Shown here one piece after another: positions 2,131 through 57,422 of a stretch of DNA of 59,976 bases. The stretch spans positions 5,177 to 65,152 of the forward strand of contig CAYVUW010000004.1 of NCBI GenBank assembly GCA_964455175.1, written 5' to 3'. The stretch is from an uncultured Acidobacteriota bacterium (GTDB taxonomy: Bacteria; Acidobacteriota; UBA890). Numbering within the stretch: the first letter of the stretch is position 1; the number at the start of each line of letters is the position of its first letter. Under the pieces are notes generated by a model. The model was not told the origin of the DNA and made no database searches. It worked only from the letters and a program-made list of their open reading frames with translations. A program made the position numbers and the translations under genes.

Positions 2131-3519
2131 TTGCGTACACGGCTACTTTCAATCCTAACCTTGACTGCTTTAGGGGCCCCTTTGGTTGTGGGCGCCAACG
2201 TGGCCTCACTCCCTGCAGGGTCATTGGCTAGACAGCAAGCCACTGCTGCCGCATCACAAATTGATGGTGCCCGAACGCGGTGGGAAATCAGCTGCAACAT
2301 CCGCAAGGACAAATTCGATTTCGTTCTCCCGAAGGCGATGCGTGCCAACAACATCGATATGTGGATCGTTATCGACCGGGGCCGTGGTACGCAGCCAATG
2401 ACACTCGATTTCGCTATCTCGACGGTCAACGGACAGGGCTTCTTCGTTTTCATTAATCATGGTGCCGGTCGCATCGAACGTTTCCAGTTGGGAGGCGGAA
2501 GTGAATTGGCTCAGGAGTGCGGTGCGTACGACGATTTCCGCAGTCTCGGTGAGCTTCGGGACATCGTGATCCAGAGTGATCCACAGCGCATCGCATTGAA
2601 TTTCCTGGAAGTCCCGAACATACGTGAGGGGCTGCACGTTGCTGACGGGTTGACTCACAGTGACTTCCAATTCCTCAGCGAAGAGCTTGGTGAGCCGTAC
2701 GCCTCGCGCTTTGTTTCCGCACAGCAGTTGGTCGCCGATTTTCGCGGGGAGCGTGTTGCCCTAGAGCTGGTTGAATTCTCAAAGGTCGCTGATTTGACGA
2801 GCTCGTACATTGAACGTGCCCTATCTAACGAGGTTATTACCCCAGGTGTTACGACACACAACGATGTTTCCTGGTGGCTGGAAGAACAGCGCGAAAGTAT
2901 GGGTTTGTTGCGTACCTGGTACCCAACCGTTTACACACACCTCCCCGACGGAGGTGAGATCGGTGGGACAGACCGGGTTATTCAGCGTGGTGACGTGCTA
3001 CAGATAGATTGGGGACTCGAGCGCAACAATTTCGCAACCGATATCAAACGCTTCGGCTATGTGTTGCGTGAGGGAGAGACCGAGGTGCCACCGGGGATCC
3101 AGAATGCGTTTGAGGAATCGTTACGGGTGCAAAGGATCATTCGTAACAACGTCACATCAGGGCGCACGGGACGAGAACAAATTGACGCGCTGAAGCAAAT
3201 CATCAGGGACGCTGGCTACGTTTATACCGAAAAAGAACGAGCTAGCGATGTGGAGGGAATCGAGGTCAACGTTGGGATGCACGCCGCTGGTAATATCGGA
3301 CACGATATGGCGGCGTCGCTGTTCGAAATCTTTCCATTTCGCACTGAGTACATGGTCCGACCCAACAACATCATCTCGCTTGAGTACATCGTCTTCACTC
3401 CTGCTCCGGAGTGGGATGGGGCGAAAGTCCCCGTGAATGTTGAAGAGAATGCGACGATTACCGAGCGTGGCATCGAATGGCTTTACCCGCCACAGATGCG
3501 AGTACAGGTTATTCGATAG
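2131..3519 (+). CDS. Exported M24 family metallopeptidase (Xaa-Pro aminopeptidase-like)
   Basis: TTG start after AAGGAGG and an N-terminal signal peptide. Pita-bread ligands are QIDWG..ATDIKR (D,D), HAAGNIGH (H plus second His), SLEY (E) and VEEN (E). Confidence 0.85.
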   Translation: MRTRLLSILTLTALGAPLVVGANVASLPAGSLARQQATAAASQIDGARTRWEISCNIRKDKFDFVLPKAMRANNIDMWIVIDRGRGTQPMTLDFAISTVNGQGFFVFINHGAGRIERFQLGGGSELAQECGAYDDFRSLGELRDIVIQSDPQRIALNFLEVPNIREGLHVADGLTHSDFQFLSEELGEPYASRFVSAQQLVADFRGERVALELVEFSKVADLTSSYIERALSNEVITPGVTTHNDVSWWLEEQRESMGLLRTWYPTVYTHLPDGGEIGGTDRVIQRGDVLQIDWGLERNNFATDIKRFGYVLREGETEVPPGIQNAFEESLRVQRIIRNNVTSGRTGREQIDALKQIIRDAGYVYTEKERASDVEGIEVNVGMHAAGNIGHDMAASLFEIFPFRTEYMVRPNNIISLEYIVFTPAPEWDGAKVPVNVEENATITERGIEWLYPPQMRVQVIR

Positions 3520-3568
3520 GCCACGTCAATCTGCAGCTCTTGAGAAGCTATCGGCGCCCAGAAGGGCG

Positions 3569-4474
3569 TTACCTCCAGGAAGCACCGGCTCCTTCTCCGA
3601 TGTGGGTAGCCTCGCCGCTGACGAGCTCGATGAGCTTTAGCATAAACTGACCGTTCTCCCTTGCCGTCAAAAGGATCTGGCTGCCATCCGGTGACCACTC
3701 CGGAAAGGCGTCACCGAACATCATGCTCTCAGTTATTTGGCGTTTTTGGGAACCGTCGACGTTCATCACCCAGAGGTTTTTATCTTCTTCTGTGCCTGAG
3801 GCCCAGGCGACTTGGCTGCTGTCTCGTGAGAGTGATGGCCACTCATCAAGGTGGTTGTTTTCAGTTAGACGTCTGGTCTCTCCGCTCTCTGGATTCGTCA
3901 AGTAGATCTCAGGATTGCCGTCTCGGTTCGATTCGTAGACAACGGCAGCACCATCACGCCCCCATCGCGCGTAGGCATCGCTTGTGCTGCCAGTATCGAT
4001 ACGTTCTTCGGCTCCGGTTGCGACGATGATGAGGTAAAGGCCGCGACCGTTGGCATCATCCTTGGTAACGAGAATTTGCTCGCCACGTGGGCCCCAGTCG
4101 GCTGGGTTGCCATTGTTTGCGAGTGCCACGGAAGACTCCCCGGATTCCGTGTCCAGAATCATGACGTTAGCCGAATCCTCGTTCATTGCGACGAACAGGA
4201 CTCGATTGCCATCCGGTGACCACACCGGAAAGGCAACATGCCCTCCTAAAGAGGTCAATTGCTGGGGAACAAGGTCAGAGATATTTGCAGAGAACACTTC
4301 GGAGGCTTTGCCGGCGGGACTGGCGTAGACGATCTCAGGCTTCCCCATCGTTGCACTGGGCCCACTTGCGCCTTCGGCAGGCAATTCCCCCGTCGGTGTG
4401 TTACCTCCGGCGCAGGCTACGAGAATTAGTGCCAGTGCGACAGGAACACTCCGGAGCTGCCCACATCGAATCAC
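3569..4474 (-). CDS. TolB-like/PD40 six-bladed beta-propeller lipoprotein
   Basis: Lipobox LVAC; repeated P-x-WSPDG motifs (PVWSPDG, PEWSPDG), SNRDGNPEIY and WVMNVDGS. GTG start overlaps the upstream TGA (GTGA). Confidence 0.88.
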   Translation of the reverse strand: MIRCGQLRSVPVALALILVACAGGNTPTGELPAEGASGPSATMGKPEIVYASPAGKASEVFSANISDLVPQQLTSLGGHVAFPVWSPDGNRVLFVAMNEDSANVMILDTESGESSVALANNGNPADWGPRGEQILVTKDDANGRGLYLIIVATGAEERIDTGSTSDAYARWGRDGAAVVYESNRDGNPEIYLTNPESGETRRLTENNHLDEWPSLSRDSSQVAWASGTEEDKNLWVMNVDGSQKRQITESMMFGDAFPEWSPDGSQILLTARENGQFMLKLIELVSGEATHIGEGAGASWR

Positions 4475-5388: not shown

Positions 5389-5459
5389 TGGGAAACCTCC
5401 GGTTGATAGCCTGACGCCAAACATGGATGTTTGTGTGATTCTGGGAAGTTAGCTTCCCG

Positions 5460-6524: not shown

Positions 6525-6653
6525 TTTGCTTGCCTTCCTAGGATACGAAGCAATTCTTTTCACCGCGTTCGCGGACCGTACATCGTATACGATCTGTGCT
6601 CCTTTGCTGCTGCCACCGCTTTAATCTAAGACAACCTAGCTAGGAGACATGCT

Positions 6654-7502: not shown

Positions 7503-7504
7503 AA

Positions 7505-8011: not shown

Positions 8012-8033
8012 ACTTGGGGGAAGAAGTGCAGCG

Positions 8034-9317: not shown

Positions 9318-9334
9318 AGGGCGAGGAGGGTGCG

Positions 9335-10324: not shown

Positions 10325-10357
10325 GGCCTTTGTGATCGAATACTTGAGCGTTTGCTT

Positions 10358-13179: not shown

Positions 13180-13226
13180 TTTGTTCTTGCCTCAGCTAAA
13201 TTCCTGCGCTGGAGAAGTTGGAAGGG

Positions 13227-18439: not shown

Positions 18440-19822
18440 CTAGCGGATCAGCAAAATTCTTTCGTTGCGTGGATACAACAACTCGACGCCCTGATTCGTA
18501 ACTATGACGTTGTCTTCGAAGTTGATTCGTAAGCGCTGGTCGCCGAATGATGGCAGAGCCGTGTGGGTTATGAACTCGAATGAGAAGATGTTGTTGGACT
18601 GAATCATGAGGTTGGCTCGGAGTTCGCGGAACGGTGCAAACGAAGGACCGACCGCCACTTGGCTGTTGCCCGTGTTGCCGACGACATGACAATCGATCGA
18701 AATACCAGTCACACTGGGTTGGTCAAAGCTCTCGACGATCTGCCTGTCGATTTCACCAAAGTTGACGAAAGGTGTGTATACAAACCCTTCGGCCTCGAGC
18801 GCCGCGACGACCGCAGCGAGTGTTTCACGTGCGGTGCGGCCTGTTCGAATGTTTCGGCGCATGATGTCGCGGGCCCGGCGGCCTTCATCCCAGGCATGCC
18901 TAATGTCCTCTGGCAGAGCTGTTTCATCTTCTCGCAGCAGGTAGGCGTTTCGCTTCATGTCGGTACCGAAATTGAGGTATTTCACCCCCGTGTCGAACTG
19001 CAGCAGGTCGCCTCGCTGAAAAGCGTATGTGCTTGAGCGGTATTCTTGGGGCTCTGCGAGGGCGGAATGAATCACTATGGGTCTAGTGAGGCCGAACGAA
19101 GATCCCAGACCGGCCTCTAACAGGCGTTCTTGCACCCACCAGGCGACGTCTTCACCGGTTGTAATTCCAGGCGTGATAACTTCGCGTGATAAGGCTCGCT
19201 CCAGGATCCGACGGGTCATGTCACCGGCCTGGGCGAAGGCGACGATCTCCGATTGAACCCGGCGTACTCGGAAGTCGGTGATGAGATTCTCGCTGGAGAC
19301 AAGCCGGGAGGCGTAAGTCTCGCCGATTGCTTCCACAAGCTGCTGATACCCGGAATGCGACAGGCCGTCAGCCGCTGCAAGCCACGCGGACGTGTTGACG
19401 GCGATCCGCTCCGGGTCCCGTTCCTCAATAAATTGACGCAATTCCGTAGCATTGTGGTTGGGATACCAGGCATTCCAGTCGTTCCAAGCAAAGATGTCGT
19501 ACGCGCCGCTCGTGTACATTCCTTGGCCACGGCCGGCAAGCACGGCACGCTCGATCCTGTCACCACCGCGATCGGTAAAAATGAAATAGCCGGCGGTTCC
19601 ACCAAGATCGAGTGCTAGCGCGTCAGGGTTGCCATCACGGATGACATGAATCCACATGTCTATACCGTTGTCCCGCATCACGCCGGGGAGCACCACGTCG
19701 AACTTCTCTCTTTGGATCAGGTCGAGCATTTCTGCCCGCGCCTGGGCTTCTTGCGCAGATGCTTGGGCCCCCGAGATGATGGTGACCAAAGATGCGAGCA
19801 CTGCAAGGATTTGCTTCTTCAT
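18440..19822 (-). CDS. Exported M24 family protein, HxxGNTGN variant
   Basis: ATG at 19822 after AGGAG; signal MKKQILAVLASL...ASA. Motifs QFDTG..GTDMKR, CHVVGNTGN, SFEF and FEDN. Confidence 0.85.
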   Translation of the reverse strand: MKKQILAVLASLVTIISGAQASAQEAQARAEMLDLIQREKFDVVLPGVMRDNGIDMWIHVIRDGNPDALALDLGGTAGYFIFTDRGGDRIERAVLAGRGQGMYTSGAYDIFAWNDWNAWYPNHNATELRQFIEERDPERIAVNTSAWLAAADGLSHSGYQQLVEAIGETYASRLVSSENLITDFRVRRVQSEIVAFAQAGDMTRRILERALSREVITPGITTGEDVAWWVQERLLEAGLGSSFGLTRPIVIHSALAEPQEYRSSTYAFQRGDLLQFDTGVKYLNFGTDMKRNAYLLREDETALPEDIRHAWDEGRRARDIMRRNIRTGRTARETLAAVVAALEAEGFVYTPFVNFGEIDRQIVESFDQPSVTGISIDCHVVGNTGNSQVAVGPSFAPFRELRANLMIQSNNIFSFEFITHTALPSFGDQRLRINFEDNVIVTNQGVELLYPRNERILLIR

Positions 19823-21118: not shown

Positions 21119-21387
21119 GGTTGTTTCCTTCTGTCGAGTCACTCAGCGGGTCATCCAGCTCACATAATAAGCGCCGGGGAAGTTTAGCTGAGCGTTGTTT
21201 TTCTAAGGGCTTTAGGAGTTGATGGTATGTGTCTGGTAGCACCGGATAATACTCATGAATGCCGACCGCTGCTTACGGTCTTTCTTCTGTTGGTAACTGG
21301 CAGAGTACTCTCCGAGGTATACGTGGCACGAAGATCTATAACAATGGATGAGTCTGAATACCGTCTCGCCAGATAGTGAGGAGATTA

Positions 21388-22980
21388 ATGCATTACTTAA
21401 AGGCCATATTTGTTGGGCTATTTTCCTGGCCATTGATTGTCGCTGCTGGGGGTAGTGTCCAAGAACCAGTGGACTATGAGGTTATCGAACGGATTAAGGC
21501 CGAAGCGTTTGGCAATTCCCAGGTGATGGATGTTGCCGGCACTCTGGCGGATGTTTATGGGCCTCGCTTCTCCAACTCACCCTCATACAATAGGGCGATC
21601 CAGTGGGCGCAGGAAAAATTTGAAGAGTTTGGGTTTGATGCCCAAATTGAGTCGTTCGGTCCCGTTGGGCTTGGGTGGGAGAATCGCTACACCTCGGTGC
21701 ATATGCTTGGCCCCGAGTACATGACAATAATTGCGTACCCGGTACCCTGGTCACGCGGGACAGAAGGGCGCATTACAAGCACAGCGGTTTTCGTCAATGC
21801 AGCGGCGATCCGATCCGAAGCAGAGTTGGAGGCCTACCGGGCCGAGGTACGCGACAAAGTCGTCTTCGTCGCTCCCGAGCGTAAACTCGTCCCGGGTTTT
21901 GAACCAAGCGGTGAGCGCTTCACTCAAGCACAACTCGACGATTGGTCACGGTTCTTTGTCTTGCCGCAATCGGAGCCTGCCACGGCGGTATATGTACCCC
22001 CGACAGCCAGCTCGTTAGGCGACCCTCTACCTCTAGAACGGATCGAGGCGTTTCTCGAAACGGCCGGAGCGTCACTGCTCGTTTCCCCGGGCATGGGAAC
22101 GAACCTGGGGGCTTTCGACAAGGGAACTGTACGCGTCGTCGGAGGCGCGCCAATTTCCCCTGCTGACCCTAAACCTATGCCGCAGGTAATCGTCGCACCC
22201 GAGCATTACAATCGTGTTGTGCGACTTCTCGAGAGAGGTGTCGAGGTTGCCATCGAGGCTGAAGTGAGGATCCATTACGACGAGGAAGATCTGCAGGACT
22301 ACAATTTAGTTGCCGAGATTCCTGGAACTGACCTTGCCCATGAGATCGTAATGATCGGCGGGCACTTCGATGCCGAATCAGCTGGCACAGGGGCTACCGA
22401 CAATGCCTCTGGCAGTGCTGTAGTCATGGAGGCGATGCGCGTTCTCCACTCGATCGGAGCCCAACCGCGACGTACGATTCGCGCTGTGTTGTGGGGCTCG
22501 GAGGAGGCAGGGCATTTGGGGTCCCGCAGCTACATCAACAACCACTTCGCCAACTGGGAAACCGGCGAACCTTTGCCCGACTACGACAACCTATCGGTCT
22601 ATTTCAATACTGACTGGTACGGTCGCTTCCGCGGAATCTTCCTCGAAGGCAACCCCTTGGTTGTGCCAATCTTCACCGAATGGATGAAGCCTTTCAACAA
22701 CCTCGGGCTCACCCACCTTATTCCAGTTAACACCCGGGGCACCGATAGTGACTCGTTCAATGCGGTTGGCCTCCCAGGATTTAAGTTTCTGCAGGACGAT
22801 CTTGAGTACTTCACCACGACATGGCATTCGAATATGGATGTGTACGATCGGCTTGTTGCCGAAGACTTGATGGGCAATGCAGCCATTCTCGCTAGCTTTG
22901 CCTATCATGCGGCGATGCGTGACGAAAAGATCCCACGAGTTGAAAAAAGGCTCATCAACGGACGTCGCTGGCTCAAATAA
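21388..22980 (+). CDS. Exported M28 family peptidase (carboxypeptidase Q-like, PA insert), canonical active site
   Basis: GAGGAG RBS and signal peptide. Motifs GGHFD, GATDNASG, WGSEEAG, FNTD and WHSNMDVYD. Confidence 0.9.
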   Translation: MHYLKAIFVGLFSWPLIVAAGGSVQEPVDYEVIERIKAEAFGNSQVMDVAGTLADVYGPRFSNSPSYNRAIQWAQEKFEEFGFDAQIESFGPVGLGWENRYTSVHMLGPEYMTIIAYPVPWSRGTEGRITSTAVFVNAAAIRSEAELEAYRAEVRDKVVFVAPERKLVPGFEPSGERFTQAQLDDWSRFFVLPQSEPATAVYVPPTASSLGDPLPLERIEAFLETAGASLLVSPGMGTNLGAFDKGTVRVVGGAPISPADPKPMPQVIVAPEHYNRVVRLLERGVEVAIEAEVRIHYDEEDLQDYNLVAEIPGTDLAHEIVMIGGHFDAESAGTGATDNASGSAVVMEAMRVLHSIGAQPRRTIRAVLWGSEEAGHLGSRSYINNHFANWETGEPLPDYDNLSVYFNTDWYGRFRGIFLEGNPLVVPIFTEWMKPFNNLGLTHLIPVNTRGTDSDSFNAVGLPGFKFLQDDLEYFTTTWHSNMDVYDRLVAEDLMGNAAILASFAYHAAMRDEKIPRVEKRLINGRRWLK

Positions 22981-22988: not shown

Positions 22989-24374
22989 TCAGCGGATTAA
23001 CAGAATCCTCGGATTCGGAGGATAGAGCCATTCGACGCCATGGACCGTAACGATGGCGTTGTCCTCGAAGTTGATCGACATGCGTGTTCCATCGTCCATG
23101 ACGGAATGCACCACGAATTCCAGCGAGAAGATGTTGTCTGGTTGGATCATGACGTGTGCACGATCGGGGCGGAACGGTGCGAACGATGGTCCCACTGCTG
23201 CCTCGCTGTTCCCGGTATTGCCGACGGTGTGGCAGTCAATGGAAATACCAGTACGAGGATCCTCGCCCATCGCGTTGATGATGTCGCGATCGCGGCTGTC
23301 GTCGACGAAGGGTGTGTAAACGTACCCTGCTGCCTCCAGAACCTCGACAAGGTATGCCAATGTCTCACCGGCTGTACGTCCAACTTTGATGTTGTTTTCG
23401 ATGATCTGCCGGGCCTGGTAGCCCATGTCCCAGGCGTGTTGGATGTCAGCTGGCGGAGCGGTTTCTCCCTCGCGCAACACGTAAGCGTGGCGCTTGAAGT
23501 CGGTGCCGAAGTTCAGGTAGCGGATTCCCATGTCATAAGAGAGGAAATCTCCGCGTTGAATGGCTCCGTCCCGGCTTCTCCGTGGCCCACGGCCCCCTGC
23601 TGCAGTTCGGGAGATCCCAGGGGTGCTAACCCCAAATGATGGCCGCACACCCATCTCTAACAGCCTCTCCTGTACCCACCAGCCCACGTCCCGGCTGGTG
23701 GTGGCCCCAGGCACAACGACCTCATTTGATAGTGCTCTCTCCAACGTGCGCCGAGTCATTTCACCAGCTGTGGAAAAAGCGGCGATCTCTCGCTCTACTC
23801 GACGTACACGGAAGTCGGTTATGAGCTGGTCCGCTGATACCAGTCGATCGGCATAAACCGGTCCGATTGTTTCCACAAGATTCTGGTAGTCGGTGTGCGA
23901 CATGCCGTCGGCAACGCCGATCCATTTCGAGCTATTGATTGCTATGCGCCGTGGATCGCGTTCCTCGACCAAGGTCCGGAGATCTTCGGTCGATCCAACT
24001 GTGTCGTATACAGACCGATCTTGCAGTTGGAATGGGCTTAACGCGATGCGTTCGATTCTATCGCCCCCGCGATCGGCAAAAACAAACGTTCCAAATTCGG
24101 CCCCTAGATCGTGTTCCAACGGGTCGGGGTTGCCCATGCGGATCGAGTGGATCCACATATCGATGCCGTTATCACGCATCGCTCCCGGCAAGATCAGGTT
24201 GAACTTATCGCGCCGGATAAGGTTGAGCGTTTCCCAGCGAGCTTTGGCATCGAGCATGCGCACGTCTTGGCTCACGACCGGTTGCGCGCTCGACAAATTA
24301 CCCATCGCGAGTATGAGGGCCAACAACCCACCACCTAGCAAAGCGGTTCTAGTTGTGCTGGAACTCCCCTTCAT
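22989..24374 (-). CDS. Exported M24 family protein, HxxGNTGN variant
   Basis: Signal peptide. Motifs SYDMG..GTDFKR, CHTVGNTGN, SLEF and FEDN. ATGA overlap with the TPR gene stop. Confidence 0.85.
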   Translation of the reverse strand: MKGSSSTTRTALLGGGLLALILAMGNLSSAQPVVSQDVRMLDAKARWETLNLIRRDKFNLILPGAMRDNGIDMWIHSIRMGNPDPLEHDLGAEFGTFVFADRGGDRIERIALSPFQLQDRSVYDTVGSTEDLRTLVEERDPRRIAINSSKWIGVADGMSHTDYQNLVETIGPVYADRLVSADQLITDFRVRRVEREIAAFSTAGEMTRRTLERALSNEVVVPGATTSRDVGWWVQERLLEMGVRPSFGVSTPGISRTAAGGRGPRRSRDGAIQRGDFLSYDMGIRYLNFGTDFKRHAYVLREGETAPPADIQHAWDMGYQARQIIENNIKVGRTAGETLAYLVEVLEAAGYVYTPFVDDSRDRDIINAMGEDPRTGISIDCHTVGNTGNSEAAVGPSFAPFRPDRAHVMIQPDNIFSLEFVVHSVMDDGTRMSINFEDNAIVTVHGVEWLYPPNPRILLIR

Positions 24375-25255
24375 TTGCCCTTATCTCCATGCTCCTGGCC
24401 TTGCTGTTCAAGCCAAGTTTCAAGGTACCTGATATGCACGGCGACATCGCTTCGTATGGCGCTCGGTGTAGTGATGTCAGACAGTGACATCTGCCGCGAG
24501 TAAATTTCTTCACCGGAAGTTGGGTGTACCAATTTAAAGTAGCCGTTAATTTCCCCATCTTCGAAGGTGTCCGCTTGGACTAAGAGCACATGGGTGGCCA
24601 AGGCTACCTGGCTGACGGCCGCGAAATGTTTTGATTCCACAAGCGCAAGAATATACAGACGACGAACTTCCGGGAGTTCTTGTTGCGTACGGTTCATCTC
24701 AACAGAGCTGGTGTCCAAAAAAGAACTGGGCGATAAGTCCGCGGTAATTAGCCGGGTCATGTCCAGGTCGGCAACAAAAACACGTGGCGCAGCGAGGCGG
24801 ACATCCAAGTCATCAGGGCGCGGCGAAACTGCTTCGATTTGCTTGAAATACGCGGCCATGTCTTGCCCCGACTGGGCTGCGAGAATTGCTTGATCCCAGG
24901 CGTCTTCAAAACGTTGGCTTTGAAATGCTGCGATCATGGCCCCCTGGTGGATCGGGGCGTTACCCGGGTCTAGCTTTGCGGCCTGAGTGAGAAGGTCAAA
25001 GGCTTCATCGAATCGTCGGAGACGTCCGAGCGTCGTCCCGGCGAAATACAAAGCTGGCACATACTCCGGAGCCTCCTCGAGGGCTTGCTGCAGTTCCGCC
25101 AGTGCTTGTTCGAGTTGACCCTCCTGGAGTAGTTGCTGCCCTTTCTGTATGCGCTCCTCGAGGGTCTGCGCTATGGCGCCACTAGGGATAGCGAGCAATG
25201 TTAAACAGGACAAGAAGGCGAATGCTCGTAATCTGATTTCATAGGCTCGGGTCAT
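24371..25255 (-). CDS. Exported tetratricopeptide-repeat protein with an uncharacterised C-terminal domain
   Basis: Signal RLRAFAFLSCLTLLAIPSGAIA and TPR-like helices (ALAELQQALEEAPEYVPALYFAG, AFDLLTQAAKLDPGNA). Start 25255 follows GAGGA; 25285 is an alternative. The ORF-track extension to 25564 overlaps the TMEM220 gene. Confidence 0.75.
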   Translation of the reverse strand: MTRAYEIRLRAFAFLSCLTLLAIPSGAIAQTLEERIQKGQQLLQEGQLEQALAELQQALEEAPEYVPALYFAGTTLGRLRRFDEAFDLLTQAAKLDPGNAPIHQGAMIAAFQSQRFEDAWDQAILAAQSGQDMAAYFKQIEAVSPRPDDLDVRLAAPRVFVADLDMTRLITADLSPSSFLDTSSVEMNRTQQELPEVRRLYILALVESKHFAAVSQVALATHVLLVQADTFEDGEINGYFKLVHPTSGEEIYSRQMSLSDITTPSAIRSDVAVHIRYLETWLEQQGQEHGDKGK

Positions 25256-25281
25256 CAGTTTTATTCCTCTCGACAGGTGTT

Positions 25282-25695
25282 TCATTGTTGGGTTTTGCGG
25301 CCCCGATGGACAAGATACGTAGTCCAGGATGCAACCGATAGAAGTCCCAAGAACTCGCGTCCTTCTTCCATTTCTCTGCTCATCATCTCCCAGGATTGAA
25401 AAAGGTCTGGGTGTGGGAATGAGGTTTGCGTAACTACTGTGGGTACTAGTGTGGCTGCCCAAACGAAGGCCCCCACCGCAACCACTGCCGGTATTTTCCA
25501 CAAGTCCGGAAACCACAACGCGGCGAAAGAGACACCCGCTGCGGCAAGGTAAAGCACCAACCAAGCATAAGGATCAGGATCGTTGTATTGCACTGCAGCT
25601 GCAAAGACAAGCAACATCCCCACGGTGCCGACCCCAAATTTCGCTGTCTTGGACGGCATTTCCAGCGTGCCCGGAATGGCATTCTCTCCCGGCAT
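25282..25695 (-). CDS. Transmembrane 220 (TMEM220) family protein
   Basis: QYNDPDPYAWLVLY and EEGREFLGL motifs; four hydrophobic segments; TAATG coupling to the upstream M24 gene. Confidence 0.8.
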   Translation of the reverse strand: MPGENAIPGTLEMPSKTAKFGVGTVGMLLVFAAAVQYNDPDPYAWLVLYLAAAGVSFAALWFPDLWKIPAVVAVGAFVWAATLVPTVVTQTSFPHPDLFQSWEMMSREMEEGREFLGLLSVASWTTYLVHRGRKTQQ

Positions 25696-27047
25696 TACTT
25701 AATGATGTACCACTCGACCTGGCGGCCGCCAAGGAAAACAAGCCGGTCCTCGGTCATGGCTACATTTTGCTCCAGTGTAATGCGGACATCCTGTCCACCC
25801 CATTCCGGAACAGATGTCCACGTGTGCAACTCCATGGCGTATGTCGTGTTGGCGTAGACCGGATATCCTCCCGGTGGTAGCAATGGCGCCGGTTCAGCCA
25901 GCTCGCCACCCCCCAGGCCAGGTCCGGCCCCATAGCGCATCTTGATAAACCCCCCATTCAAGCTGTATCGCCGAAGATAATACGGCAGCGGATGTGAGTA
26001 GATCGATGGTCGCAAGCCGTCGTCCCAGGCAGCCTCAAGAGCATCGTTGACAATGTCATTCGACGGTTTGCCGGCCGCGAAAGCGTTAGCAAAGTGTATT
26101 TGAAGACGATTGGTGTTGTTGAGTGCTACTTGTAATCCTTCGGGTGCATCCGTCTCGCCTTCCTTCAGCACATAGGCGACTTGCTGTGTGTCCGTTCCAA
26201 CGCCGAAATAGTTGATTCCGGTATCCACGCTGATCATGTCTCCACGCCTAATGATCATGTTGTAACCATTGCGAGGTGGCACCTCAATGGTGAAGTGTTC
26301 GTCATCCTCTTCATACTTAGGACGCTCGAGTCGGCTTCGTTGGATCGTGATCGTTGGATGGTCGCTGGTTTCGAGCCCCAGGTCGCGGTAACGCTGACGG
26401 ATCCACCAGTTCAGATCGTCGGTCGTAGTGACGTCCGGCACAACGACCCTGTTCGAGAATGCCTCAGCGATAATGTCGTAGGCGACCCGCGCTACGTGGT
26501 TGAAGGCACTGACTTCTTCGGGGTTTCTTTTCTCCAGGAATCCGGTACGCAGGTCACGGCTGACGACAAAGCGTGCGGCCATTTCGCTGTCAACGATCTC
26601 GGCAAATTGCTCTCGTGAACCACGGCTGACACCTATGTGGCTGGGATCATGGCTGTTTATGAGATCGGCAACTTCGCCGGCATCAATTGCCAAAGACTCG
26701 ACACCATCGTCTGCGCCCTTATCTATAAAGATCAATGCGTCATATCGCTGTGATACTAAGCCTTCATAATTGGCCGGTACCAACGAGTAATAAAGGGCGC
26801 CGTCTTCCTCACCGATCAGCCACACGTCGACCCCCACGCGTCGCATTACCTCAGGAACGATGTGTTTCTTCCGCCAGCGCAGCCACTCTTCTTCCATCAG
26901 TATTTGCTGTCTTATGGGTGCAATGTTCTCGATGTCGTTTTGCGACTCGATGCCGTAGGGTTGCTGGAAGGCTTGTGGCCTACCGATGGCCGTAGGTAGC
27001 AGCACCATAACTACCAAGAAGGAAAACGCTACTTTTGTTAGCGACAT
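25695..27047 (-). CDS. Exported M24 family protein with an insertion after the metal-ligand His
   Basis: Signal peptide. Motifs DHPTITIQR, SVDTG..GTDTQQ, SHPLPYYLRR...YGAGPG, AMEL and LEQN. Confidence 0.82.
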   Translation of the reverse strand: MSLTKVAFSFLVVMVLLPTAIGRPQAFQQPYGIESQNDIENIAPIRQQILMEEEWLRWRKKHIVPEVMRRVGVDVWLIGEEDGALYYSLVPANYEGLVSQRYDALIFIDKGADDGVESLAIDAGEVADLINSHDPSHIGVSRGSREQFAEIVDSEMAARFVVSRDLRTGFLEKRNPEEVSAFNHVARVAYDIIAEAFSNRVVVPDVTTTDDLNWWIRQRYRDLGLETSDHPTITIQRSRLERPKYEEDDEHFTIEVPPRNGYNMIIRRGDMISVDTGINYFGVGTDTQQVAYVLKEGETDAPEGLQVALNNTNRLQIHFANAFAAGKPSNDIVNDALEAAWDDGLRPSIYSHPLPYYLRRYSLNGGFIKMRYGAGPGLGGGELAEPAPLLPPGGYPVYANTTYAMELHTWTSVPEWGGQDVRITLEQNVAMTEDRLVFLGGRQVEWYIIK

Positions 27048-27118: not shown

Positions 27119-28555
27119 ATGATGATAGTTCGAACCATTCTATTTTTTTTCACGTCGCTACTCACGCTGTCTGCGACAGCCGTTCCGCAAATTGTGCAAA
27201 CGGCTCGAGAACGAGCCGAGATTCTCCACCTGATCCGAAAGGAAAAACTGGACCTGATCTTGCCGGATGCAATGCGTGACAACGACGTTGACATGTGGAT
27301 CCATGTAGCCCGCGGGGGAGATCCTGACCCGATGCAAGCTCATTTTGGTTCGATTTCAGGTTATGCGATCTTCACCGACCGAGGTGGAGACAGAATCGAG
27401 CGCGCTCTCTTCGGAGGAGGCGGGCATCCCGACTTCTTCGACATCTACGGCTCGCGAGATATAGCCATGGCGATTGAGGGCTATGACTATCGGACACAGG
27501 ATTTTGCCGTTTACAACGAACTGCGCGAGTTCGTGGCCGAGCGAGACCCTGAGGTCATCGCGGTCAACACGTCGGATTGGCTCTCCATTGCCGACGGCAT
27601 CTCTCATTCTCAATGGGAAAAGCTCGTACGTATTCTAGGCCCAGAATACGCGGCACGTATTATCTCCGCGGAAAACGTGATTACCGATTTTCGTGTGCGC
27701 AGAGTGCAGCGGGAGATCGTTGCTTTTGCTAACGCGCTGGAAATCCACCGCCAAATCCTCGAGCGTGCCTTGAGCAACGAGGTGATTGAGCCAGGCGTTA
27801 CGACGCTTGGTGAGATTGGCTGGTGGGTGCGTGAGGAGTTTGCCAAACGCGGCATGGACTTCGATAACGAAATGGGTGTCAGTATCCCGCGGATACTCTA
27901 CTCGCACGTGTCATTGCCAATCGACCCGCCAGATGTTCGATGGTGGATCCACCACGACGACTATGTGATTCAGAGGGGTGACTTCCTAACCTTTGACGTC
28001 AGTCTTCAGTACCTCGACTACTTCAGCACTGACTACAAGCGAAATGCTTATTTGTTGAGGGAAGGAGAAGAGACAGTGCCGGAGGACATCCAGTACGCCT
28101 ACGATCAGGCGATCGCAGCGAGGGCGATCATTCGTGAGGAAATAGAGGTTGGTAAGACCGCCGAGAAAACGCTAGCCGATATTGTTGCCGCTCTTGAAGC
28201 TGCGGACTATATCTACACCCCGTTCAAAGACGTTGGCACTGAGGACTACGTGCGTATACAAGAAGCACTAATTAACGAGGAACGTTCAGGGTTCTCTATC
28301 GACCTACACAGCCAGGGCAACAACGGGGGCAGCCTGATTACCGTCGGACCATCCGTGTCGCCGTTTCGTCTCGACCGGTCGCACCTGATCATTCAGGAGA
28401 ACAACTTCTTCTCGTTTGAGTACATGGTGCACACTAACCTACCGGAAAGGCCTAGGTTCCCGGTGTCGATTAACATCGAGGGGAACCACATAGTCACTAG
28501 CCGTGGGGTCGAATACCTTCACCCGCCGAACGAACGAATCTTGCTGGTCCACTGA
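27119..28555 (+). CDS. Exported M24 family protein, HSQGNN variant
   Basis: GAGGAA RBS and signal peptide. Motifs TFDVS..STDYKR, LHSQGNNGG, SFEY and IEGN. Close paralog of 55995-57422. Confidence 0.85.
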   Translation: MMIVRTILFFFTSLLTLSATAVPQIVQTARERAEILHLIRKEKLDLILPDAMRDNDVDMWIHVARGGDPDPMQAHFGSISGYAIFTDRGGDRIERALFGGGGHPDFFDIYGSRDIAMAIEGYDYRTQDFAVYNELREFVAERDPEVIAVNTSDWLSIADGISHSQWEKLVRILGPEYAARIISAENVITDFRVRRVQREIVAFANALEIHRQILERALSNEVIEPGVTTLGEIGWWVREEFAKRGMDFDNEMGVSIPRILYSHVSLPIDPPDVRWWIHHDDYVIQRGDFLTFDVSLQYLDYFSTDYKRNAYLLREGEETVPEDIQYAYDQAIAARAIIREEIEVGKTAEKTLADIVAALEAADYIYTPFKDVGTEDYVRIQEALINEERSGFSIDLHSQGNNGGSLITVGPSVSPFRLDRSHLIIQENNFFSFEYMVHTNLPERPRFPVSINIEGNHIVTSRGVEYLHPPNERILLVH

Positions 28556-50561: not shown

Positions 50562-50588
50562 CCTTGAACATTACTCCCTACAGGGTAG

Positions 50589-50620
50589 CGATAGCCTGAA
50601 AGGTTAGCTGACGGCTATCG
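50589..50620. terminator. Candidate terminator hairpin between convergent genes
   Basis: 8-bp inverted repeat CGATAGCC / GGCTATCG with a 16-nt loop, between the stops at 50561 (+) and 50625 (-). Only a weak A/T tract flanks it. Confidence 0.35.
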
Positions 50621-50624
50621 AAAG

Positions 50625-53857: not shown

Positions 53858-53890
53858 CAAACCGCGTCTCTTGCCGGCGTAAAATCCCAA

Positions 53891-55798
53891 CTAATTCTCC
53901 TTGACCGGAATTACCGGAAGGATGAGATGAGACGGGTATTGTCTCGAATGGTGGACCGTATTCCTAGCGATCACCCATTCCGTCTCATCGTAATTGTTTC
54001 CCCCGGTATTAAGATTTCGCTCATAGGATGGGAAATCACTACTTGAAACCTGCAGCCGGATCCTGTGCCCCGGTGCAAAGTAATTACTAGTGGCATCCAT
54101 GTCCACTTGAATCTGGTATACGCCACCTTCTTCCATCCAGACTTTCTTAGTGAACCCTTCGCGATAGCGAGCCCGCAAAATACTCGCTTGGATGTTGTAG
54201 GCCGTCCCGTCTGGGTACACGTCCACGAGCTTAGCCGTGAAATCAGTATCCTTTGCCGAAGACGATATATAGAAGACTGCCGTTATCGGGCCGGTCAACT
54301 CGACACCTTCTTCCAGCGGCGGTGTGGTGTAGACAAGCACATCATTGCGAACTTCGACCGGGCCTTGATCGATCGCACCGGCGGATGTTCCCCAGGGAGT
54401 TCCGCGCGGCCCCCCTGTGGATGGGACCGGATGAGCGGGGTCGTAAATGAAAGTGTCCGGCGATTCGTCACGGGGGGGCTCTGTGGAAAGTCGACCGTCC
54501 CCGTAGCGGCTATTTGCACCTCCCATGCTATGAAGAAAGTATTTGGTGTATTCAGTTTCCGGCAGCGGCCACGCATCCGCTGAGCTCCACTCGTTGCTCC
54601 CCATTGTGTAGTACTGGACCTTCGGCATATCCGTGGCGCCGTTTTCCTCTCCTTTGAGCCAATACTCAAACCATTTGATATAGATCGAGTAATAATCGAG
54701 CCGGGCGTCACCGATATCGCGATCACCCACCACCGTGTGCTCTGTTGCCTGCTCATAGCTGCAATGGGTCGTCGGGGCAATAATAAGGAATTGATTGGCC
54801 GCAGCGGTTTCAGAGACAGCTTTCTCTCGGAAGTAGTTAAACTCGTAAATCGTCTCGTCGACACTGATGTCGTACCAGGAGCTCACGTGTAATGCTGTTA
54901 CATCGATTGTTTCGGTTCCGTCGTAATAGCCCATCGTGTCATGCCACCAGGGATCGCCAAAATCCCGCGTTGCCAGATCGAGAAAATCGTTAGGAGGCGC
55001 CCCTGCTTTATTCATAATGTCGATGAGAGGCAACGTCCAGACCAGTTTTTCCCAATCTGGCTCCGGTGCTGTAGTTGCCTGGGGAGAGTAGAAATCGCGG
55101 ATTTTGGCAATCTCCTCATCTGATAGTCCCGGTGGGGGCTTAAAGGAATACTTGTTGCCGGAGCTGAAATACCAAGGCACGGTGGCGGCGAAGTCGAGAA
55201 CACCGCCCTTGAAGCCCGACCAATACCGATACCGGCCGTTTGCGGCACCGATGAACGGCCCATTCCGAGGAATCATTGTGGTCAGGTTAGGGTGTTTCAG
55301 TGGTGCTGTGGCGGCTTGCACCTCGGCTGGATACGAGCAGCCATGCATCCCCACCTTGCCGTTGGACCAAGATTGCTTGGCAATCCAATCAACGGCATCG
55401 TAGCCATCCTCAGCTTCACTTCCCGCCGGTGGAGAGTAGATCCCTTCAGACTCGAACTTGCCTCGGCTGTCTTGCACGGCGACAACAAAGCCTCGTGACG
55501 CAAACATATAAGCGTCGCCGTTCTTGTTATCTCTCAATTCGTTCTTGTTATACGGAGTCCGGATGAGAATTACGGGCAGTTTTTCGTCAGGAATTTCTGG
55601 GAAGTACAGGTCGGTTGCCAACCGTACACCGTCTCGCATGGGGACCATGCGGCTTTTCTCCAACCGCACTTCGTTTTCCGGGGCAGGTCGGCTGATAGGA
55701 CCTGATGAATCCTGCAACATTGCTTCATATGCCTCCGCAACGGTAATAAGCGCCCCCAACACTAGAAAAATCAAAACAGGGATAAGGCGAAGTCTCAT
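53891..55798 (-). CDS. Exported CocE/NonD (S15) family serine hydrolase
   Basis: Signal peptide. Motifs VPMRDGVRLATDLY, LIRTPY, QDSRGKFESEG, nucleophile GCSYP, WYD and PTTH, plus a C-terminal jelly-roll (DTDFTAKLVDV, NLNTGG). Confidence 0.9.
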   Translation of the reverse strand: MRLRLIPVLIFLVLGALITVAEAYEAMLQDSSGPISRPAPENEVRLEKSRMVPMRDGVRLATDLYFPEIPDEKLPVILIRTPYNKNELRDNKNGDAYMFASRGFVVAVQDSRGKFESEGIYSPPAGSEAEDGYDAVDWIAKQSWSNGKVGMHGCSYPAEVQAATAPLKHPNLTTMIPRNGPFIGAANGRYRYWSGFKGGVLDFAATVPWYFSSGNKYSFKPPPGLSDEEIAKIRDFYSPQATTAPEPDWEKLVWTLPLIDIMNKAGAPPNDFLDLATRDFGDPWWHDTMGYYDGTETIDVTALHVSSWYDISVDETIYEFNYFREKAVSETAAANQFLIIAPTTHCSYEQATEHTVVGDRDIGDARLDYYSIYIKWFEYWLKGEENGATDMPKVQYYTMGSNEWSSADAWPLPETEYTKYFLHSMGGANSRYGDGRLSTEPPRDESPDTFIYDPAHPVPSTGGPRGTPWGTSAGAIDQGPVEVRNDVLVYTTPPLEEGVELTGPITAVFYISSSAKDTDFTAKLVDVYPDGTAYNIQASILRARYREGFTKKVWMEEGGVYQIQVDMDATSNYFAPGHRIRLQVSSSDFPSYERNLNTGGNNYDETEWVIARNTVHHSRQYPSHLILPVIPVKEN

Positions 55799-55994
55799 AG
55801 TGTGCTTCTGCAACTCTCTGGAGACCGTTTCTTCCCGGAGGGACTCTGTCTCCTATTTTCGAAAAAAATAACAAGAAACCACGAGATTTGACCGAAGGAT
55901 GCCCTAGAATTCGCTGCGGATCCATTCTGAACGTTGACCTAGTTAGAAACTGTAATCGGGTAATGGGGCAAGCTCGTCAGGGAGAGAGATAGTG

Positions 55995-57422
55995 ATGACC
56001 TTTAGAACACTTTTACAAGTAGCTGTATTTTCGGCTGTTGTTTTGTTCGTCGCGCCGATTGCCTATGGGCAATCGGATGTAATGACGGCGAAAGTAAGCT
56101 CGGAAATTCTCCACCTAATGCGGAAAGAAAAACTTGACCTCATACTTCCTGGGGCCATGCGTGACAACAACATTGACATGTGGATCCATGTCACGCGGCA
56201 AGGTGATCCGGACCCAATGGTCCAGCAGTTTGGCAACGCGTGGGGATACATTGTTTTTACGGACCGGGGAGGAGACCGGATTGAGCGAGCGTTGTTCGGT
56301 GGCGGCGGTAGTCGGGAGCTATTTGATATCTTCGGTTCACGGGCAATCCGGATGGCGATCGCCGGTTATGACTACGGCGATCAAGATTTCTCTGTCTACG
56401 ATGAGCTGCGAAATTTCGTCGCCGAGCGAAACCCATCGACAATAGCGGTTAACACTTCCGATTGGCTTGCGATTGCAGATGGAATATCTCATTCACAGTA
56501 CGTAAAGCTCCAGAAAATCCTTGGCCCCGAGTATTCCAAGAAAATCGTCTCAGCGGAAAATGTGATCACGGATTTTCGGGCGCGTCGAACACAACGGGAG
56601 ATCGTCGCCTACGCGAATGCGTTGGAAATACACCGTCAAATTCTCGAACGCTCTTTGTCCAATGAGGTGATAACCCCAGGGGAGACTACTTTAGGGGAAG
56701 TGGGTGCGTGGGTTAGAGAGCAGTTTCACCAGCGGGGCTTGTTGCGAGGGCCCGATGCAGGCGCAGGGTCCCCCGGGATCCTGTATTCAGCGACGGCGTC
56801 AAAGCTGGGGCGGTTTGATGATGATGACTACGTGATCCAGCGTGGTGATTTCCTGACGTTTGACACAGGTGTTAGATATCTCGACTATTTCTCGACGGAT
56901 TACAAACGCAATGCTTATGTTCTCAGGGAAGGTGAAACTGCTCCTCCCGAGAGTATTCAGCACGCATTTGATCGAGCTGTCGGTGCTCGTGAGATCATGC
57001 GCAAGGAAATCAAGGTTGGTCGAACGGCTGGGCAGACGTTGGCTGCCAGCGTGGAAGCAATGGAAGCTGCTGGCTACATTTACACACCTTTTACCGATAT
57101 TGGTGAAGATGACTACATGCTCGTGCAGGAGGCACTCATCAATACCGACAAATCGGGATTTTCTATTGATTTTCACAGCCAGGGGAACAACAGCGGTAGT
57201 TTGGTGACGGTCGGACCTTCGGTGGCTCCATTTCGATCTGACCGAGATCACTTAGTAATTCAGGAAAACCACATGTTCTCTTTCGAATACATGGTTCACA
57301 CGAATGTTCCAGAACGTCCTGGCTATCCTGTTTCGATCAACATCGAAGGCAATCACATCGTGACCAGCCGGGGTGTGGAATACCTTTATCCGCCAAATGA
57401 ACGAATTTTGCTGATTTACTAA
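55995..57422 (+). CDS. Exported M24 family protein, HSQGNN variant
   Basis: Signal peptide. Motifs TFDTG..STDYKR, FHSQGNNSG, SFEY and IEGN. Long near-identical stretches shared with 27119-28555 (PVSINIEGNHIVTSRGVEYL). Confidence 0.86.
   Translation: MTFRTLLQVAVFSAVVLFVAPIAYGQSDVMTAKVSSEILHLMRKEKLDLILPGAMRDNNIDMWIHVTRQGDPDPMVQQFGNAWGYIVFTDRGGDRIERALFGGGGSRELFDIFGSRAIRMAIAGYDYGDQDFSVYDELRNFVAERNPSTIAVNTSDWLAIADGISHSQYVKLQKILGPEYSKKIVSAENVITDFRARRTQREIVAYANALEIHRQILERSLSNEVITPGETTLGEVGAWVREQFHQRGLLRGPDAGAGSPGILYSATASKLGRFDDDDYVIQRGDFLTFDTGVRYLDYFSTDYKRNAYVLREGETAPPESIQHAFDRAVGAREIMRKEIKVGRTAGQTLAASVEAMEAAGYIYTPFTDIGEDDYMLVQEALINTDKSGFSIDFHSQGNNSGSLVTVGPSVAPFRSDRDHLVIQENHMFSFEYMVHTNVPERPGYPVSINIEGNHIVTSRGVEYLYPPNERILLIY

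What the first reader, a model, noticed from the sequence alone, without database searches (positions are those of the whole stretch)
2131..57422. Six exported M24 paralogs: all five metal ligands kept, but five lack the second-shell catalytic His
Seen: the HxxGxxxH strand reads HAAGNIGH (2131), HVVGNTGN (18440), HTVGNTGN (22989), HPLPYYLR (25695), HSQGNNGG (27119) and HSQGNNSG (55995). D, D, H, E, E are retained in all six. The four Asn-rich variants also share a YTPF-led insertion just before the His strand. Established: the second His (H361 in E. coli aminopeptidase P) is important for peptide hydrolysis. Inference: an exported M24 subfamily with different chemistry or substrate.
Basis: partly seen in the sequence, partly recalled or inferred. 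Interest (0 to 1): 0.65.

Follow-up and report, generated by a model that had tools for sequence, protein, structure and literature searches.

The report
Exported M24 paralogs with rewired active site
Six intact, signal-peptide-bearing relatives of Xaa-Pro peptidases sit in this window (22 in the whole 2.45-Mb marine Acidobacteriota genome). They keep the two-metal site but have conserved, coordinated changes in the surrounding catalytic residues, so they are probably working periplasmic hydrolases that do not cut Xaa-Pro bonds; what they do cut is unknown.

Summary
All six ORFs exist, pass the Pfam M24 cut-off, carry Sec-type signal peptides and read exactly the His-strand strings reported. 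All keep D, D, H, E, E. The YTPF insertion is present in the four Asn-rich copies.

The tools added four points:
- **Gene count.** The six are part of 22 such genes in a 2.45-Mb MAG. The expansion is specific to this marine Acidobacteriota order: up to about 30 matches per genome, against 0-3 in other orders.
- **Conservation.** Each paralog has orthologues that keep its own signature, and dN/dS is 0.02-0.13. HxxGNTGN is the rule in more than 100 public homologues.
- **Coupled changes.** Loss of the +7 His is derived. It goes with Gly to Asp two residues before the metal His and with Tyr to His at the position of E. coli AMPP Tyr387. Among 514 distinct sequences, (D,N/G,H) occurs 141 times and (G,H,non-His) 55 times, with almost no mixed forms.
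- **No canonical control.** The whole branch, including the 2131 copy, lacks the His350 equivalent and has no conserved Arg404 equivalent.

The fold is two-domain M24B (Foldseek E about 1e-19) at only 13-18% identity. No member has been characterised.

Verdict: a real, conserved, uncharacterised exported M24B branch with a rewired second shell. Its chemistry is untested.

The parts
2131..3519 (+). P0001: exported M24B-like gene, 462 aa, TTG start. It keeps the +7 His.
   Evidence: (GAAGGAGG 7 nt upstream of TTG 2131).
3280..3303 (+). His strand HAAGNIGH of P0001. Context is NVGMH...GHD. E1+4 is Phe (SLEYIVF, 3376-3396).
   Evidence: the signature is identical in orthologues down to 59% identity.
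18440..19822 (-). P0002: exported M24B-like gene, 460 aa from ATG 19822. Clade A.
   Evidence: public gene calls begin at the same Met; AF2 pLDDT 90.2.
18665..18688 (-). His strand HVVGNTGN of P0002, preceded by SIDC. Asn replaces the AMPP His361 equivalent.
   Evidence: H379, G382, N383, T384, G385, N386 at 90% or more in 121 sequences.
18758..18778 (-). Start of the YTPF-led insertion of P0002. The same feature is at 23298-23318 (-), 28214-28234 (+) and 57081-57101 (+) in P0003, P0005 and P0006.
18563..18583 (-). SFEFITH of P0002: metal ligand E1 and the conserved His at E1+4 (the AMPP Tyr387 position). Equivalents are at 23106-23126 (-), 28412-28432 (+) and 57279-57299 (+).
22989..24374 (-). 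P0003: exported M24B-like gene, 461 aa, clade A. His strand HTVGNTGN at 23208-23231.
24371..25564 (-). TPR-repeat gene lying between P0004 and P0003 on the same strand. Its stop overlaps the P0003 start by 4 bp.
   Evidence: the same TPR-M24 overlap is present in a 96%-identical public contig.
25695..27047 (-). P0004: exported M24B-like gene, 450 aa, clade B. His strand HPLPYYLR at 25971-25994.
   Evidence: YSHP[LI]P.[YF]..RY conserved; pLDDT 92.7, extra strands 356-362 and 367-372 after the His strand.
27119..28555 (+). P0005: exported M24B-like gene, 478 aa, clade A. His strand HSQGNNGG at 28307-28330. It is divergent from P0004 across 71 bp.
55995..57422 (+). P0006: exported M24B-like gene, 475 aa, 70% identical to P0005. 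His strand HSQGNNSG at 57174-57197. A DUF885 gene follows 22 bp downstream.
21376..22980 (+). Exported M28 peptidase-family gene, convergent with P0003. M28-M24 adjacency recurs in relatives.
53891..55813 (-). Exported S15 X-Pro dipeptidyl-peptidase gene, divergent from P0006 (context).

Best explanation
The six genes encode periplasmic or exported two-domain M24B-fold metallohydrolases. They belong to a large, uncharacterised branch of the family that has expanded to 22 genes in this genome and to comparable numbers in its order.

Shown:
- Intact genes under strong purifying selection, with all five metal ligands kept.
- The branch lacks the AMPP His350 equivalent and has no conserved Arg404 equivalent.
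- The ancestral and widespread form keeps the +7 His (AMPP His361) and usually Tyr or another aromatic residue at E1+4 (AMPP Tyr387).
- Clade A (P0002, P0003, P0005, P0006) carries a coupled switch. Gly becomes Asp at His-2, His becomes Asn or Gly at +7, and the E1+4 residue becomes His. It also has a YTPF insertion of 12-15 residues and 3 extra residues after +7.
- Clade B (P0004) replaces the loop with a conserved HP.P.Y..RY segment that the model builds as extra strands.

Inferred:
- A metal-bridged hydroxide still attacks a C-N bond.
- In clade A, the Asn side-chain amide supplies the hydrogen bond that His361 normally gives. The new His at the Tyr387 position, perhaps with the new Asp, takes over proton transfer.
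- Without His350 and Arg404 the P1' pocket is no longer proline-specific.
- The paralogs are most likely exo- or dipeptidases of differing specificity. They would work with the neighbouring exported M28, S15 and DUF885 enzymes on oligopeptides before uptake.
For: - **Family and fold.** PF00557 is passed. AF2 models have pLDDT 90.2 and 92.7. The best Foldseek PDB hits are two-domain M24B peptidases: 2zsg at E 8e-20, then YpdF and prolidases.
- **Ligands.**
- **Selection.** dN/dS is 0.02-0.13, and orthogroup signatures are conserved.
- **Coupled switch.** Among 514 distinct sequences the triplets are (D,N,H) 123, (D,G,H) 18, (G,H,Y) 29 and (G,H,F) 11. No D-type sequence has His at +7.
- **Derived state.** His-retaining lineages are basal and widespread.
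- **Second shell.** The Arg404 position aligns to Asn and the His243 position to a variable residue, against Pfu prolidase. The His350 position is never His. Roles of His243, His350, His361, Tyr387 and Arg404 are taken from PMC5774706.
- **Export.**
- **Context.** M28 x4, S15 and DUF885 x3 lie in the window, and M28 adjacency recurs in relatives.
- **Expansion.** 22 genes in the genome. The order has up to about 30 matches per genome, other orders 0-3.
Against: - No member has been assayed.
- No coordinates were available, so the positions of Asn+7, His(E1+4) and Asp(-2) relative to the metals were not measured.
- The loop carrying Asn386 is the least confident part of the P0002 catalytic domain (mean pLDDT 70 for residues 381-390).
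- The three-site association rests on a few clades, so it counts few independent events.
- Loss of every canonical substrate-contacting His is also what a change to a non-peptide substrate would look like.
- Other paralogs in the same genome have lost Asp or Glu ligands, so the family can tolerate non-catalytic members.
Confidence: 0.55

Rival explanations
1. They are exported hydrolases or lyases for non-peptide small molecules such as amidines, guanidino compounds, cyclic amides, N-acyl amino acids or DMSP-like solutes. This would repeat the recruitment of the M24 fold seen in creatinase, ectoine hydrolase DoeA/EutD and DddP.
For: The canonical peptide-contacting residues are gone: the His350 and Arg404 equivalents in all six, and the His361 equivalent in five. 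In DddP the metal ligands are kept and Asp377, six residues after the metal His371, is the proposed catalytic base. That is a precedent for new chemistry set by this loop. EutD, creatinase and DddP structures appear among the Foldseek hits. Cytoplasmic AKR and arginase-family genes and a TRAP transporter lie nearby.
Against: NCBIfam gives no match to any creatinase, DoeA or DddP model; the best score is 16 bits, for an aminopeptidase model. Peptidases outrank the non-peptidases in both fold searches. Creatinase, DoeA and DddP are, to my knowledge, cytoplasmic, whereas these proteins carry signal peptides. The recurrent neighbours are exported peptidases. The AKR adjacency is kept only in close relatives.
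Confidence: 0.2
2. They are ordinary Xaa-Pro aminopeptidases or prolidases in which another residue, the conserved His at E1+4, fills the role of His361. In that case nothing changes in chemistry or specificity.
For: A His at the Tyr387 position is conserved in the clade-A copies that lack the +7 His. All metal ligands are kept. The nearest structures are X-Pro peptidases. An exported S15 X-Pro dipeptidyl peptidase lies next to P0006.
Against: The His350 equivalent, which contacts P1'/P2' in AMPP, is absent from every member, and the Arg404 position is Asn or Thr. P0004 has no His at E1+4; it has Trp. Tyr387 belongs to the Asp260-Arg404-Tyr387 relay, not to the His361 site. Twenty-two paralogs with one specificity would be hard to explain.
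Confidence: 0.12
3. They are catalytically inactive binding proteins (pseudoenzymes) that use the M24 cleft to bind ligands in the periplasm.
For: The M24 fold has non-enzymatic members. Several other paralogs of this genome have lost Asp or Glu ligands (clades D and E and o1208). The second-shell His residues are missing.
Against: All five ligands are retained in the six and are invariant or nearly so across hundreds of homologues. The replaced positions are themselves strongly conserved polar residues (Asn, His, Asp), as expected of a working site.
Confidence: 0.08

Closest known systems
M24B Xaa-Pro aminopeptidases and prolidases (E. coli PepP/AMPP 1a16, E. coli YpdF 5cnx, T. maritima 2zsg, Pyrococcus prolidase 1pv9)
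   Same: Both have a creatinase/prolidase-type N-domain plus a pita-bread catalytic domain. The five metal ligands D, D, H, E, E fall in the same alignment columns. These are the best Foldseek matches (E 1e-20 to 1e-14, TM 0.6-0.74 on the target) and the best profile hit in PDB (1pv9, E 1e-7).
   Different: Identity is only 13-18%. These proteins have a signal peptide. The His350 equivalent is absent and the Arg404 position is Asn or Thr. The His361 equivalent is replaced in five of six. The Tyr387 position is His, Phe or Trp. There is a 12-20-residue insertion before the His strand in clade A and extra strands after it in clade B. NCBIfam aminopeptidase equivalog scores are 12-16 bits against a cut-off of 393.
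DddP DMSP lyase (RdDddP 4b28, RlDddP 4rzy)
   Same: It has the M24B fold with retained metal ligands, and the residue in the loop after the metal His is not His but the proposed catalytic residue (Asp377, His371+6). It appears among the Foldseek hits for P0004.
   Different: There is no sequence-family match. Foldseek ranks it lower and with worse rmsd than the peptidases. DddP has a sixth ligand (Asp295/Asp297), which these proteins do not show.
Ectoine hydrolase DoeA/EutD (6twk) and creatinase (1kp0, 7yto)
   Same: Both are two-domain M24B-fold enzymes recruited to non-peptide C-N bonds. They appear among the Foldseek hits at ranks 14-35.
   Different: No family-model match. No partner deacetylase gene was identified in the window. 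To my knowledge creatinase has lost the metal ligands, whereas these proteins keep all five. These proteins are exported.
His-retaining members of the same uncharacterised branch (xIGCHSVGNLGHG and YGFHPVGNTGHD types in Acidobacteriota, Gemmatimonadota and Actinomycetota MAGs)
   Same: They share the branch and length, 40-48% identity, the GN after the metal His and the absent His350 equivalent.
   Different: They keep the +7 His and have Tyr or Trp at E1+4. They have Gly rather than Asp at His-2 and no YTPF insertion. They are usually present as one or a few copies per genome.

Membership tests
Peptidase_M24 (PF00557, pita-bread fold) | Score above Pfam's gathering cut-off over the whole catalytic domain | tested here: met
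   All six score 28.1-47.1 bits against a cut-off of 23, covering profile positions 4-208.
Peptidase_M24 (PF00557, pita-bread fold) | Five metal ligands Asp, Asp, His, Glu, Glu | tested here: met
   D, D, E, E of all six, and the His of five, are aligned with the genome's canonical M24B gene. P0004's His is placed. The ligands are conserved in 121 and 114 homologues.
M24B two-domain architecture (creatinase/prolidase N-domain plus catalytic domain) | Predicted structure matches solved M24B enzymes over both domains | tested here: met
   P0002 model (pLDDT 90.2): 2zsg at E 8e-20, 424 aligned columns, TM 0.74 on the target. P0004 model (pLDDT 92.7): 2zsg at E 5e-15.
Xaa-Pro aminopeptidase / prolidase (functional M24B) | Second-shell histidines equivalent to AMPP His243, His350 and His361 | tested here: not met
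   The His350 position is Asn, Ser or Ile in all six. His361 is kept only in P0001. The His243 position aligns to Glu or a variable residue (residue roles).
Xaa-Pro aminopeptidase / prolidase (functional M24B) | Asp260-Arg404-Tyr387 proton relay | tested here: not met
   The Tyr387 position is His (P0002/3/5/6), Phe (P0001) or Trp (P0004). The Arg404 position is Asn or Thr by HMMER alignment to 1pv9. MAFFT places an Arg at E2-4 in that column for P0002 and P0004, so this column is less certain.
Xaa-Pro aminopeptidase / prolidase (functional M24B) | NCBIfam equivalog model score above the cut-off | tested here: not met
   The best score is for PRK09795, 11.8-16.1 bits against a cut-off of 393. 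P0004 and P0005 match nothing.
Xaa-Pro aminopeptidase / prolidase (functional M24B) | Hydrolysis of Xaa-Pro bonds | not testable with these tools
   This needs an enzyme assay.
Creatinase / DoeA (EutD) / DddP (non-peptidase M24B enzymes) | Sequence-family match or closest structural match | tested here: not met
   No NCBIfam hit. Foldseek ranks them below the peptidases, at rank 14 or lower.

The most novel reading that the evidence does not exclude
A coordinated three-site rewiring produced a new catalytic apparatus on the M24B two-metal scaffold. The three changes are Gly to Asp at His-2, His361 to Asn or Gly, and Tyr387 to His, together with the YTPF insertion. This exported clade, with sister clades that remodel the same loop differently or lose ligands, then radiated to 20-30 genes per genome in one marine Acidobacteriota order. 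Its role would be a periplasmic toolkit for substrates other than Xaa-Pro peptides, for example modified or D-amino-acid-containing peptides, or non-peptide amides in marine dissolved organic matter.
Probability: 0.27. Interest if true: 0.7.

Novelty: new variant of a known kind. Interest (0 to 1): 0.5.

Why it matters
M24 enzymes are a textbook case of one metal scaffold reused for different chemistry: MetAP, prolidase, creatinase, ectoine hydrolase and DddP. This is a branch of thousands of sequences that is exported, which I believe is unusual for bacterial M24, and annotated only as 'M24 family metallopeptidase' or 'Xaa-Pro aminopeptidase'. That annotation is probably wrong, because the proline-pocket residues are missing.

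The two-state signature, G-x-H...G-H with Tyr or another non-His residue at E1+4 versus D-x-H...G-N with His there, gives a clean test of how the second shell of a binuclear hydrolase can be rebuilt. It can be tested by mutation. The 22-gene expansion in a 2.45-Mb genome, next to expanded M28 and DUF885 sets, suggests these marine Acidobacteriota invest heavily in periplasmic processing of nitrogen-rich organic matter. Knowing the substrates would improve annotation of many marine and sediment metagenomes.

Tried and rejected
- **Single-sequence PDB search with P0002.** Nothing below E 0.17. The profile search did better, but the His-strand region was not aligned.
- **hhalign of the family profile against the genome's canonical M24B protein.** Probability 11% and only 122 columns, so it could not be used for residue mapping. 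I used a joint MAFFT alignment instead.
- **hmmalign of 95 representative proteins to the six-sequence HMM.** The His-strand columns were too gappy beyond clade A to count states. I replaced this with regex-anchored counts.
- **3D test of which residue occupies the His361 position.** Structure prediction returns no coordinates and no model file appears in /data, so this was not possible.
- **Neighbour clustering around the His-retaining relatives.** Spurious long ORFs in high-GC contigs dominated the result, so I abandoned it.
- **Literature.** No paper mentions 'Marinacidobacter'. No paper characterising an exported M24 of this type was found. The Xanthomonas and Deinococcus prolidase papers that I recall describing Tyr/Arg-relay variants are not in the library, so I did not use that point.
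- **AKR link.** I considered that the AKR gene upstream of P0002 marks a non-peptide pathway and set this aside. The AKRs have no signal peptide, and the adjacency is kept only in close relatives.


Full report
**1. The observation**

ORF listing and translation recover six full-length frames:

| Protein | Window coordinates | Strand | His strand |
|---|---|---|---|
| P0001 | 2131-3519 | + | HAAGNIGH |
| P0002 | 18440-19822 | - | HVVGNTGN |
| P0003 | 22989-24374 | - | HTVGNTGN |
| P0004 | 25695-27047 | - | HPLPYYLR |
| P0005 | 27119-28555 | + | HSQGNNGG |
| P0006 | 55995-57422 | + | HSQGNNSG |

- All six pass the Pfam Peptidase_M24 cut-off, though weakly: 28-47 bits against 23.
- NCBIfam's curated aminopeptidase models give at most 16 bits against a cut-off of 393.
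- The genome's own cytoplasmic canonical M24B gene (G000 contig 22; HRTGHSITNEIH, VEPGIY, VRSE) was aligned with the family. The two Asp and two Glu ligands of all six, and the metal His of five, fall in the canonical columns.
- P0004's His is placed by the 22-paralog alignment. It is also supported by invariance of D275, D286, H352 and E406 across 114 homologues, with E426 at 90% or more.
- The YTPF-led insertion is present in P0002, P0003, P0005 and P0006. It is absent from P0001 and P0004.
- Each protein begins with a short basic n-region and a strongly hydrophobic 12-mer.
- P0001 starts at TTG 2131, 7 nt after GAAGGAGG.
- Public gene calls for a 96%-identical contig start P0002 at the same Met.

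**2. Surroundings and genome**

- Most genes in the window encode exported proteins.
- The neighbours include four M28 genes, three DUF885 genes and an S15 X-Pro dipeptidyl peptidase. There are also PD40 and BNR/sortilin propellers, three cytoplasmic aldo-keto reductases, an arginase-family gene, a TRAP transporter and an SSF symporter.
- P0004, a TPR gene and P0003 lie in series on the minus strand, and the TPR stop overlaps the P0003 start by 4 bp. P0005 is divergent from P0004 across 71 bp. P0006 is followed by a DUF885 gene.
- The window is contig 4 of a 2.45-Mb, 68-contig, 89%-complete MAG.
- Close relatives are titled Acidobacteriota or 'Candidatus Marinacidobacterales'.
- An HMM built from the six paralogs finds 22 family members in this genome. 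It does not match the canonical M24B-like genes found on contigs 8 and 22.
- By inspection, all 20 paralogs with a complete N-terminus have signal-peptide-like or lipoprotein-like N-termini.
- Genomes of the same family and order carry up to about 30 matches. Acidobacteriota of other orders carry 0-3.
- M28-M24 adjacency recurs in relatives. AKR-M24 adjacency is seen only in close ones.

**3. The branch as a whole**

- P0002 has more than 2,500 homologues in the 5.8-billion-protein collection. The only names given are 'M24 family metallopeptidase' and 'Xaa-Pro aminopeptidase/dipeptidase'.
- Among 1.84 billion 50%-identity representatives, the six-sequence profile finds 2,570 at E<=1e-3 and 364 at E<=1e-30.
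- No solved structure is close. The best profile hit is Pyrococcus prolidase 1pv9 at E 1e-7.
- AF2 models of P0002 (pLDDT 90.2) and P0004 (pLDDT 92.7) match two-domain M24B enzymes best. The top hits are 2zsg, YpdF and prolidases.
- EutD, creatinase, DddP and E. coli AMPP follow, at 11-18% identity.
- The six are therefore members of the M24B fold class but of no characterised family.

**4. The variant strands are conserved signatures, and the loss is derived**

- Of the 126 sequences checked (the six window proteins and the 120 listed homologues of P0002), 88 read H[CTVM]VGNTGN alone. About 20 more carry it together with an upstream HTAG hit. Only P0001 has His at +7.
- P0004's homologues keep YSHP[LI]P.[YF]..RY.
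- Searches of 40 relatives with P0001 and P0005 show that each paralog has orthologues in other genera and families that keep its own signature:

| Group | His strand | E1 strand | Lowest identity seen |
|---|---|---|---|
| P0001 | NVGMHAAGN[IL][GA]HD | E...F | 59% |
| P0002/3 | SIDCH.VGNTGNS | E...H | about 70% |
| P0005/6 | SID.HSQGNN[GS]GS | E...H | 70% |

- Identity between orthologues (59-99%) exceeds that between most paralogs (28-58%; P0005 and P0006 are 70% identical). Most of the duplications therefore predate the order's diversification.
- dN/dS against orthologues is 0.02-0.13 for all six, although dS is near saturation.
- The forms found in most relatives of the order and outside it are xIGCHSVGNLGHG and YGFHPVGNTGHD. 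They occur in soil Acidobacteriota, Gemmatimonadota and Actinomycetota. They keep the +7 His and usually have Tyr, sometimes Trp, at E1+4.
- In a FastTree rooted on the canonical gene, the His-retaining lineages (o196, o1291, o1387, the core group and P0001) are basal or paraphyletic.
- The +7 His is lost separately in clade B (the P0004 group) and in the ancestor of clade A and of the ligand-losing clades D and E. That tree is approximate.

**5. A coupled switch, and no canonical control**

According to PMC5774706, E. coli AMPP works as follows:
- The metal ligands are Asp260, Asp271, His354, Glu383 and Glu406.
- His243, His350 and His361 are essential second-shell residues. They also contact P1' and P2'.
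- An Asp260-Arg404-Tyr387 relay moves protons.

In this branch:
- The His350 position (metal His -4) is never His.
- The Arg404 position aligns to Asn in the clade A consensus by HMMER against 1pv9. It reads Asn, Thr or Pro in the other groups by register.
- MAFFT instead places an Arg at E2-4 in that column for some members, so this column is less certain.
- The His243 position aligns to a variable residue.
- This applies to the 2131 copy too. That copy also has Phe at the Tyr387 position, so it is not a canonical control.
- Loss of the +7 His in clade A goes with two other changes: Asp for Gly at His-2, and His at E1+4 (the Tyr387 position).

Counts of the triplet (His-2, +7, E1+4) among 514 distinct family sequences:

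| Triplet | Count |
|---|---|
| D, N, H | 123 |
| D, G, H | 18 |
| G, H, Y | 29 |
| G, H, F | 11 |
| G, H, S/T/W | 15 |

- No D-type sequence has His at +7. Only one G-type sequence has His at E1+4.
- The counts are sequences, not independent events. They mostly reflect two clades.
The candidate is His(E1+4), which sits at a relay position rather than at the His361 position.
- I could not measure this because no coordinates are returned. The GNTGN loop is also the least confident part of the P0002 catalytic domain (pLDDT 70).

**6. Mechanism**

Shown: intact, selected, exported proteins of M24B fold with a complete metal site and a conserved, remodelled second shell.

Inferred:
- They remain binuclear metallohydrolases.
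- In clade A, Asn+7 donates the hydrogen bond that His361 normally gives.
- His(E1+4), perhaps with Asp(-2), replaces the Tyr/Arg relay.
- The proline pocket is gone, so the substrates are not Xaa-Pro.
- Given the recurrent exported M28, S15 and DUF885 neighbours, oligopeptides are the most likely substrates.

My odds are as follows:

| Reading | Probability |
|---|---|
| Active exported peptidases with non-X-Pro specificity | about 0.55 |
| Non-peptide C-N hydrolase or lyase | about 0.2 |
| Ordinary X-Pro enzymes with a relocated His | about 0.12 |
| Pseudoenzymes | about 0.08 |

The DddP precedent shows that this loop can set chemistry. DddP keeps its metals, and Asp377, six residues after the metal His, is the proposed base. 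That is why the second reading keeps real weight.

**7. Novelty and verdict**

- Nothing in the searched literature characterises this branch.
- It is a new variant of a known kind. The fold and metal site are familiar. The unusual features are the export signal, the coupled second-shell switch and a 22-gene expansion in a small genome.
- Interest is 0.5. The finding is solid and would be worth a bench project, but the chemistry is unknown and the fold is familiar.

Noticed in passing
G000 contigs C51:13385-17642, C5:7684-10836, C14:15982-17440 and C42:1-1051 (outside the window): Other paralogs of the same branch have lost metal ligands. Clade D (o1271, o2642, o2638, o2417) and clade E (o529, o513, o2641) lack one or both Asp ligands and have His at the last Glu position (AFHDG, WWDHE). 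They lie in tandem arrays of three (C51) and two (C5). They may be non-catalytic or may use a different metal site.
   Followed up: partly
G000 contigs C27, C16 and C45 (o1972, o1395, o2494), relatives of P0004: Three clade-B paralogs keep the HPPP.[YF]..R[YF] strand but have Gly at the last Glu ligand (GIGQ, GHGQ). P0004 itself keeps it (TLEQN).
   Followed up: no
window 5460-6563, 14818-15843 and 20036-21142 (all minus strand): Three cytoplasmic aldo-keto reductase genes with no signal peptide each lie directly upstream of an exported peptidase-fold gene: a zincin-like gene, a DUF885 gene and M24 P0002. In the P0002-centred loci fetched, an AKR next to the M24 gene is seen only in close relatives.
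   Followed up: partly
window 21376-22980, 42625-44163, 50625-52229 and 52223-53890: Four exported M28-family paralogs lie in the same window. An M28 gene next to an M24-branch gene recurs in related genomes (L017, L019, L021, L023).
   Followed up: partly
L053 (JAEOTE010000103.1, titled Candidatus Heimdallarchaeota MAG); L041, L043 and L064 (titled uncultured Bifidobacteriaceae MAGs): Members of this branch occur on contigs binned to unexpected taxa. One is a clade-A-type TIDCHCVGNTGNSE, 50% identical to P0002, in a Heimdallarchaeota bin. The others are YGFHPVGNTGHD types in 'Bifidobacteriaceae' bins. This could be mis-binning or horizontal transfer.
   Followed up: no
G019:C15:607969-609096 (relative genome): One family member in a relative carries an in-frame TGA, which could mean a pseudogene or a sequencing error.
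   Followed up: no
own genome G000: The xIGCHSVGNLGHG 'core' form, present in most relatives of the order, was not found in this 89%-complete MAG. P0001 is its nearest relative here.
   Followed up: partly
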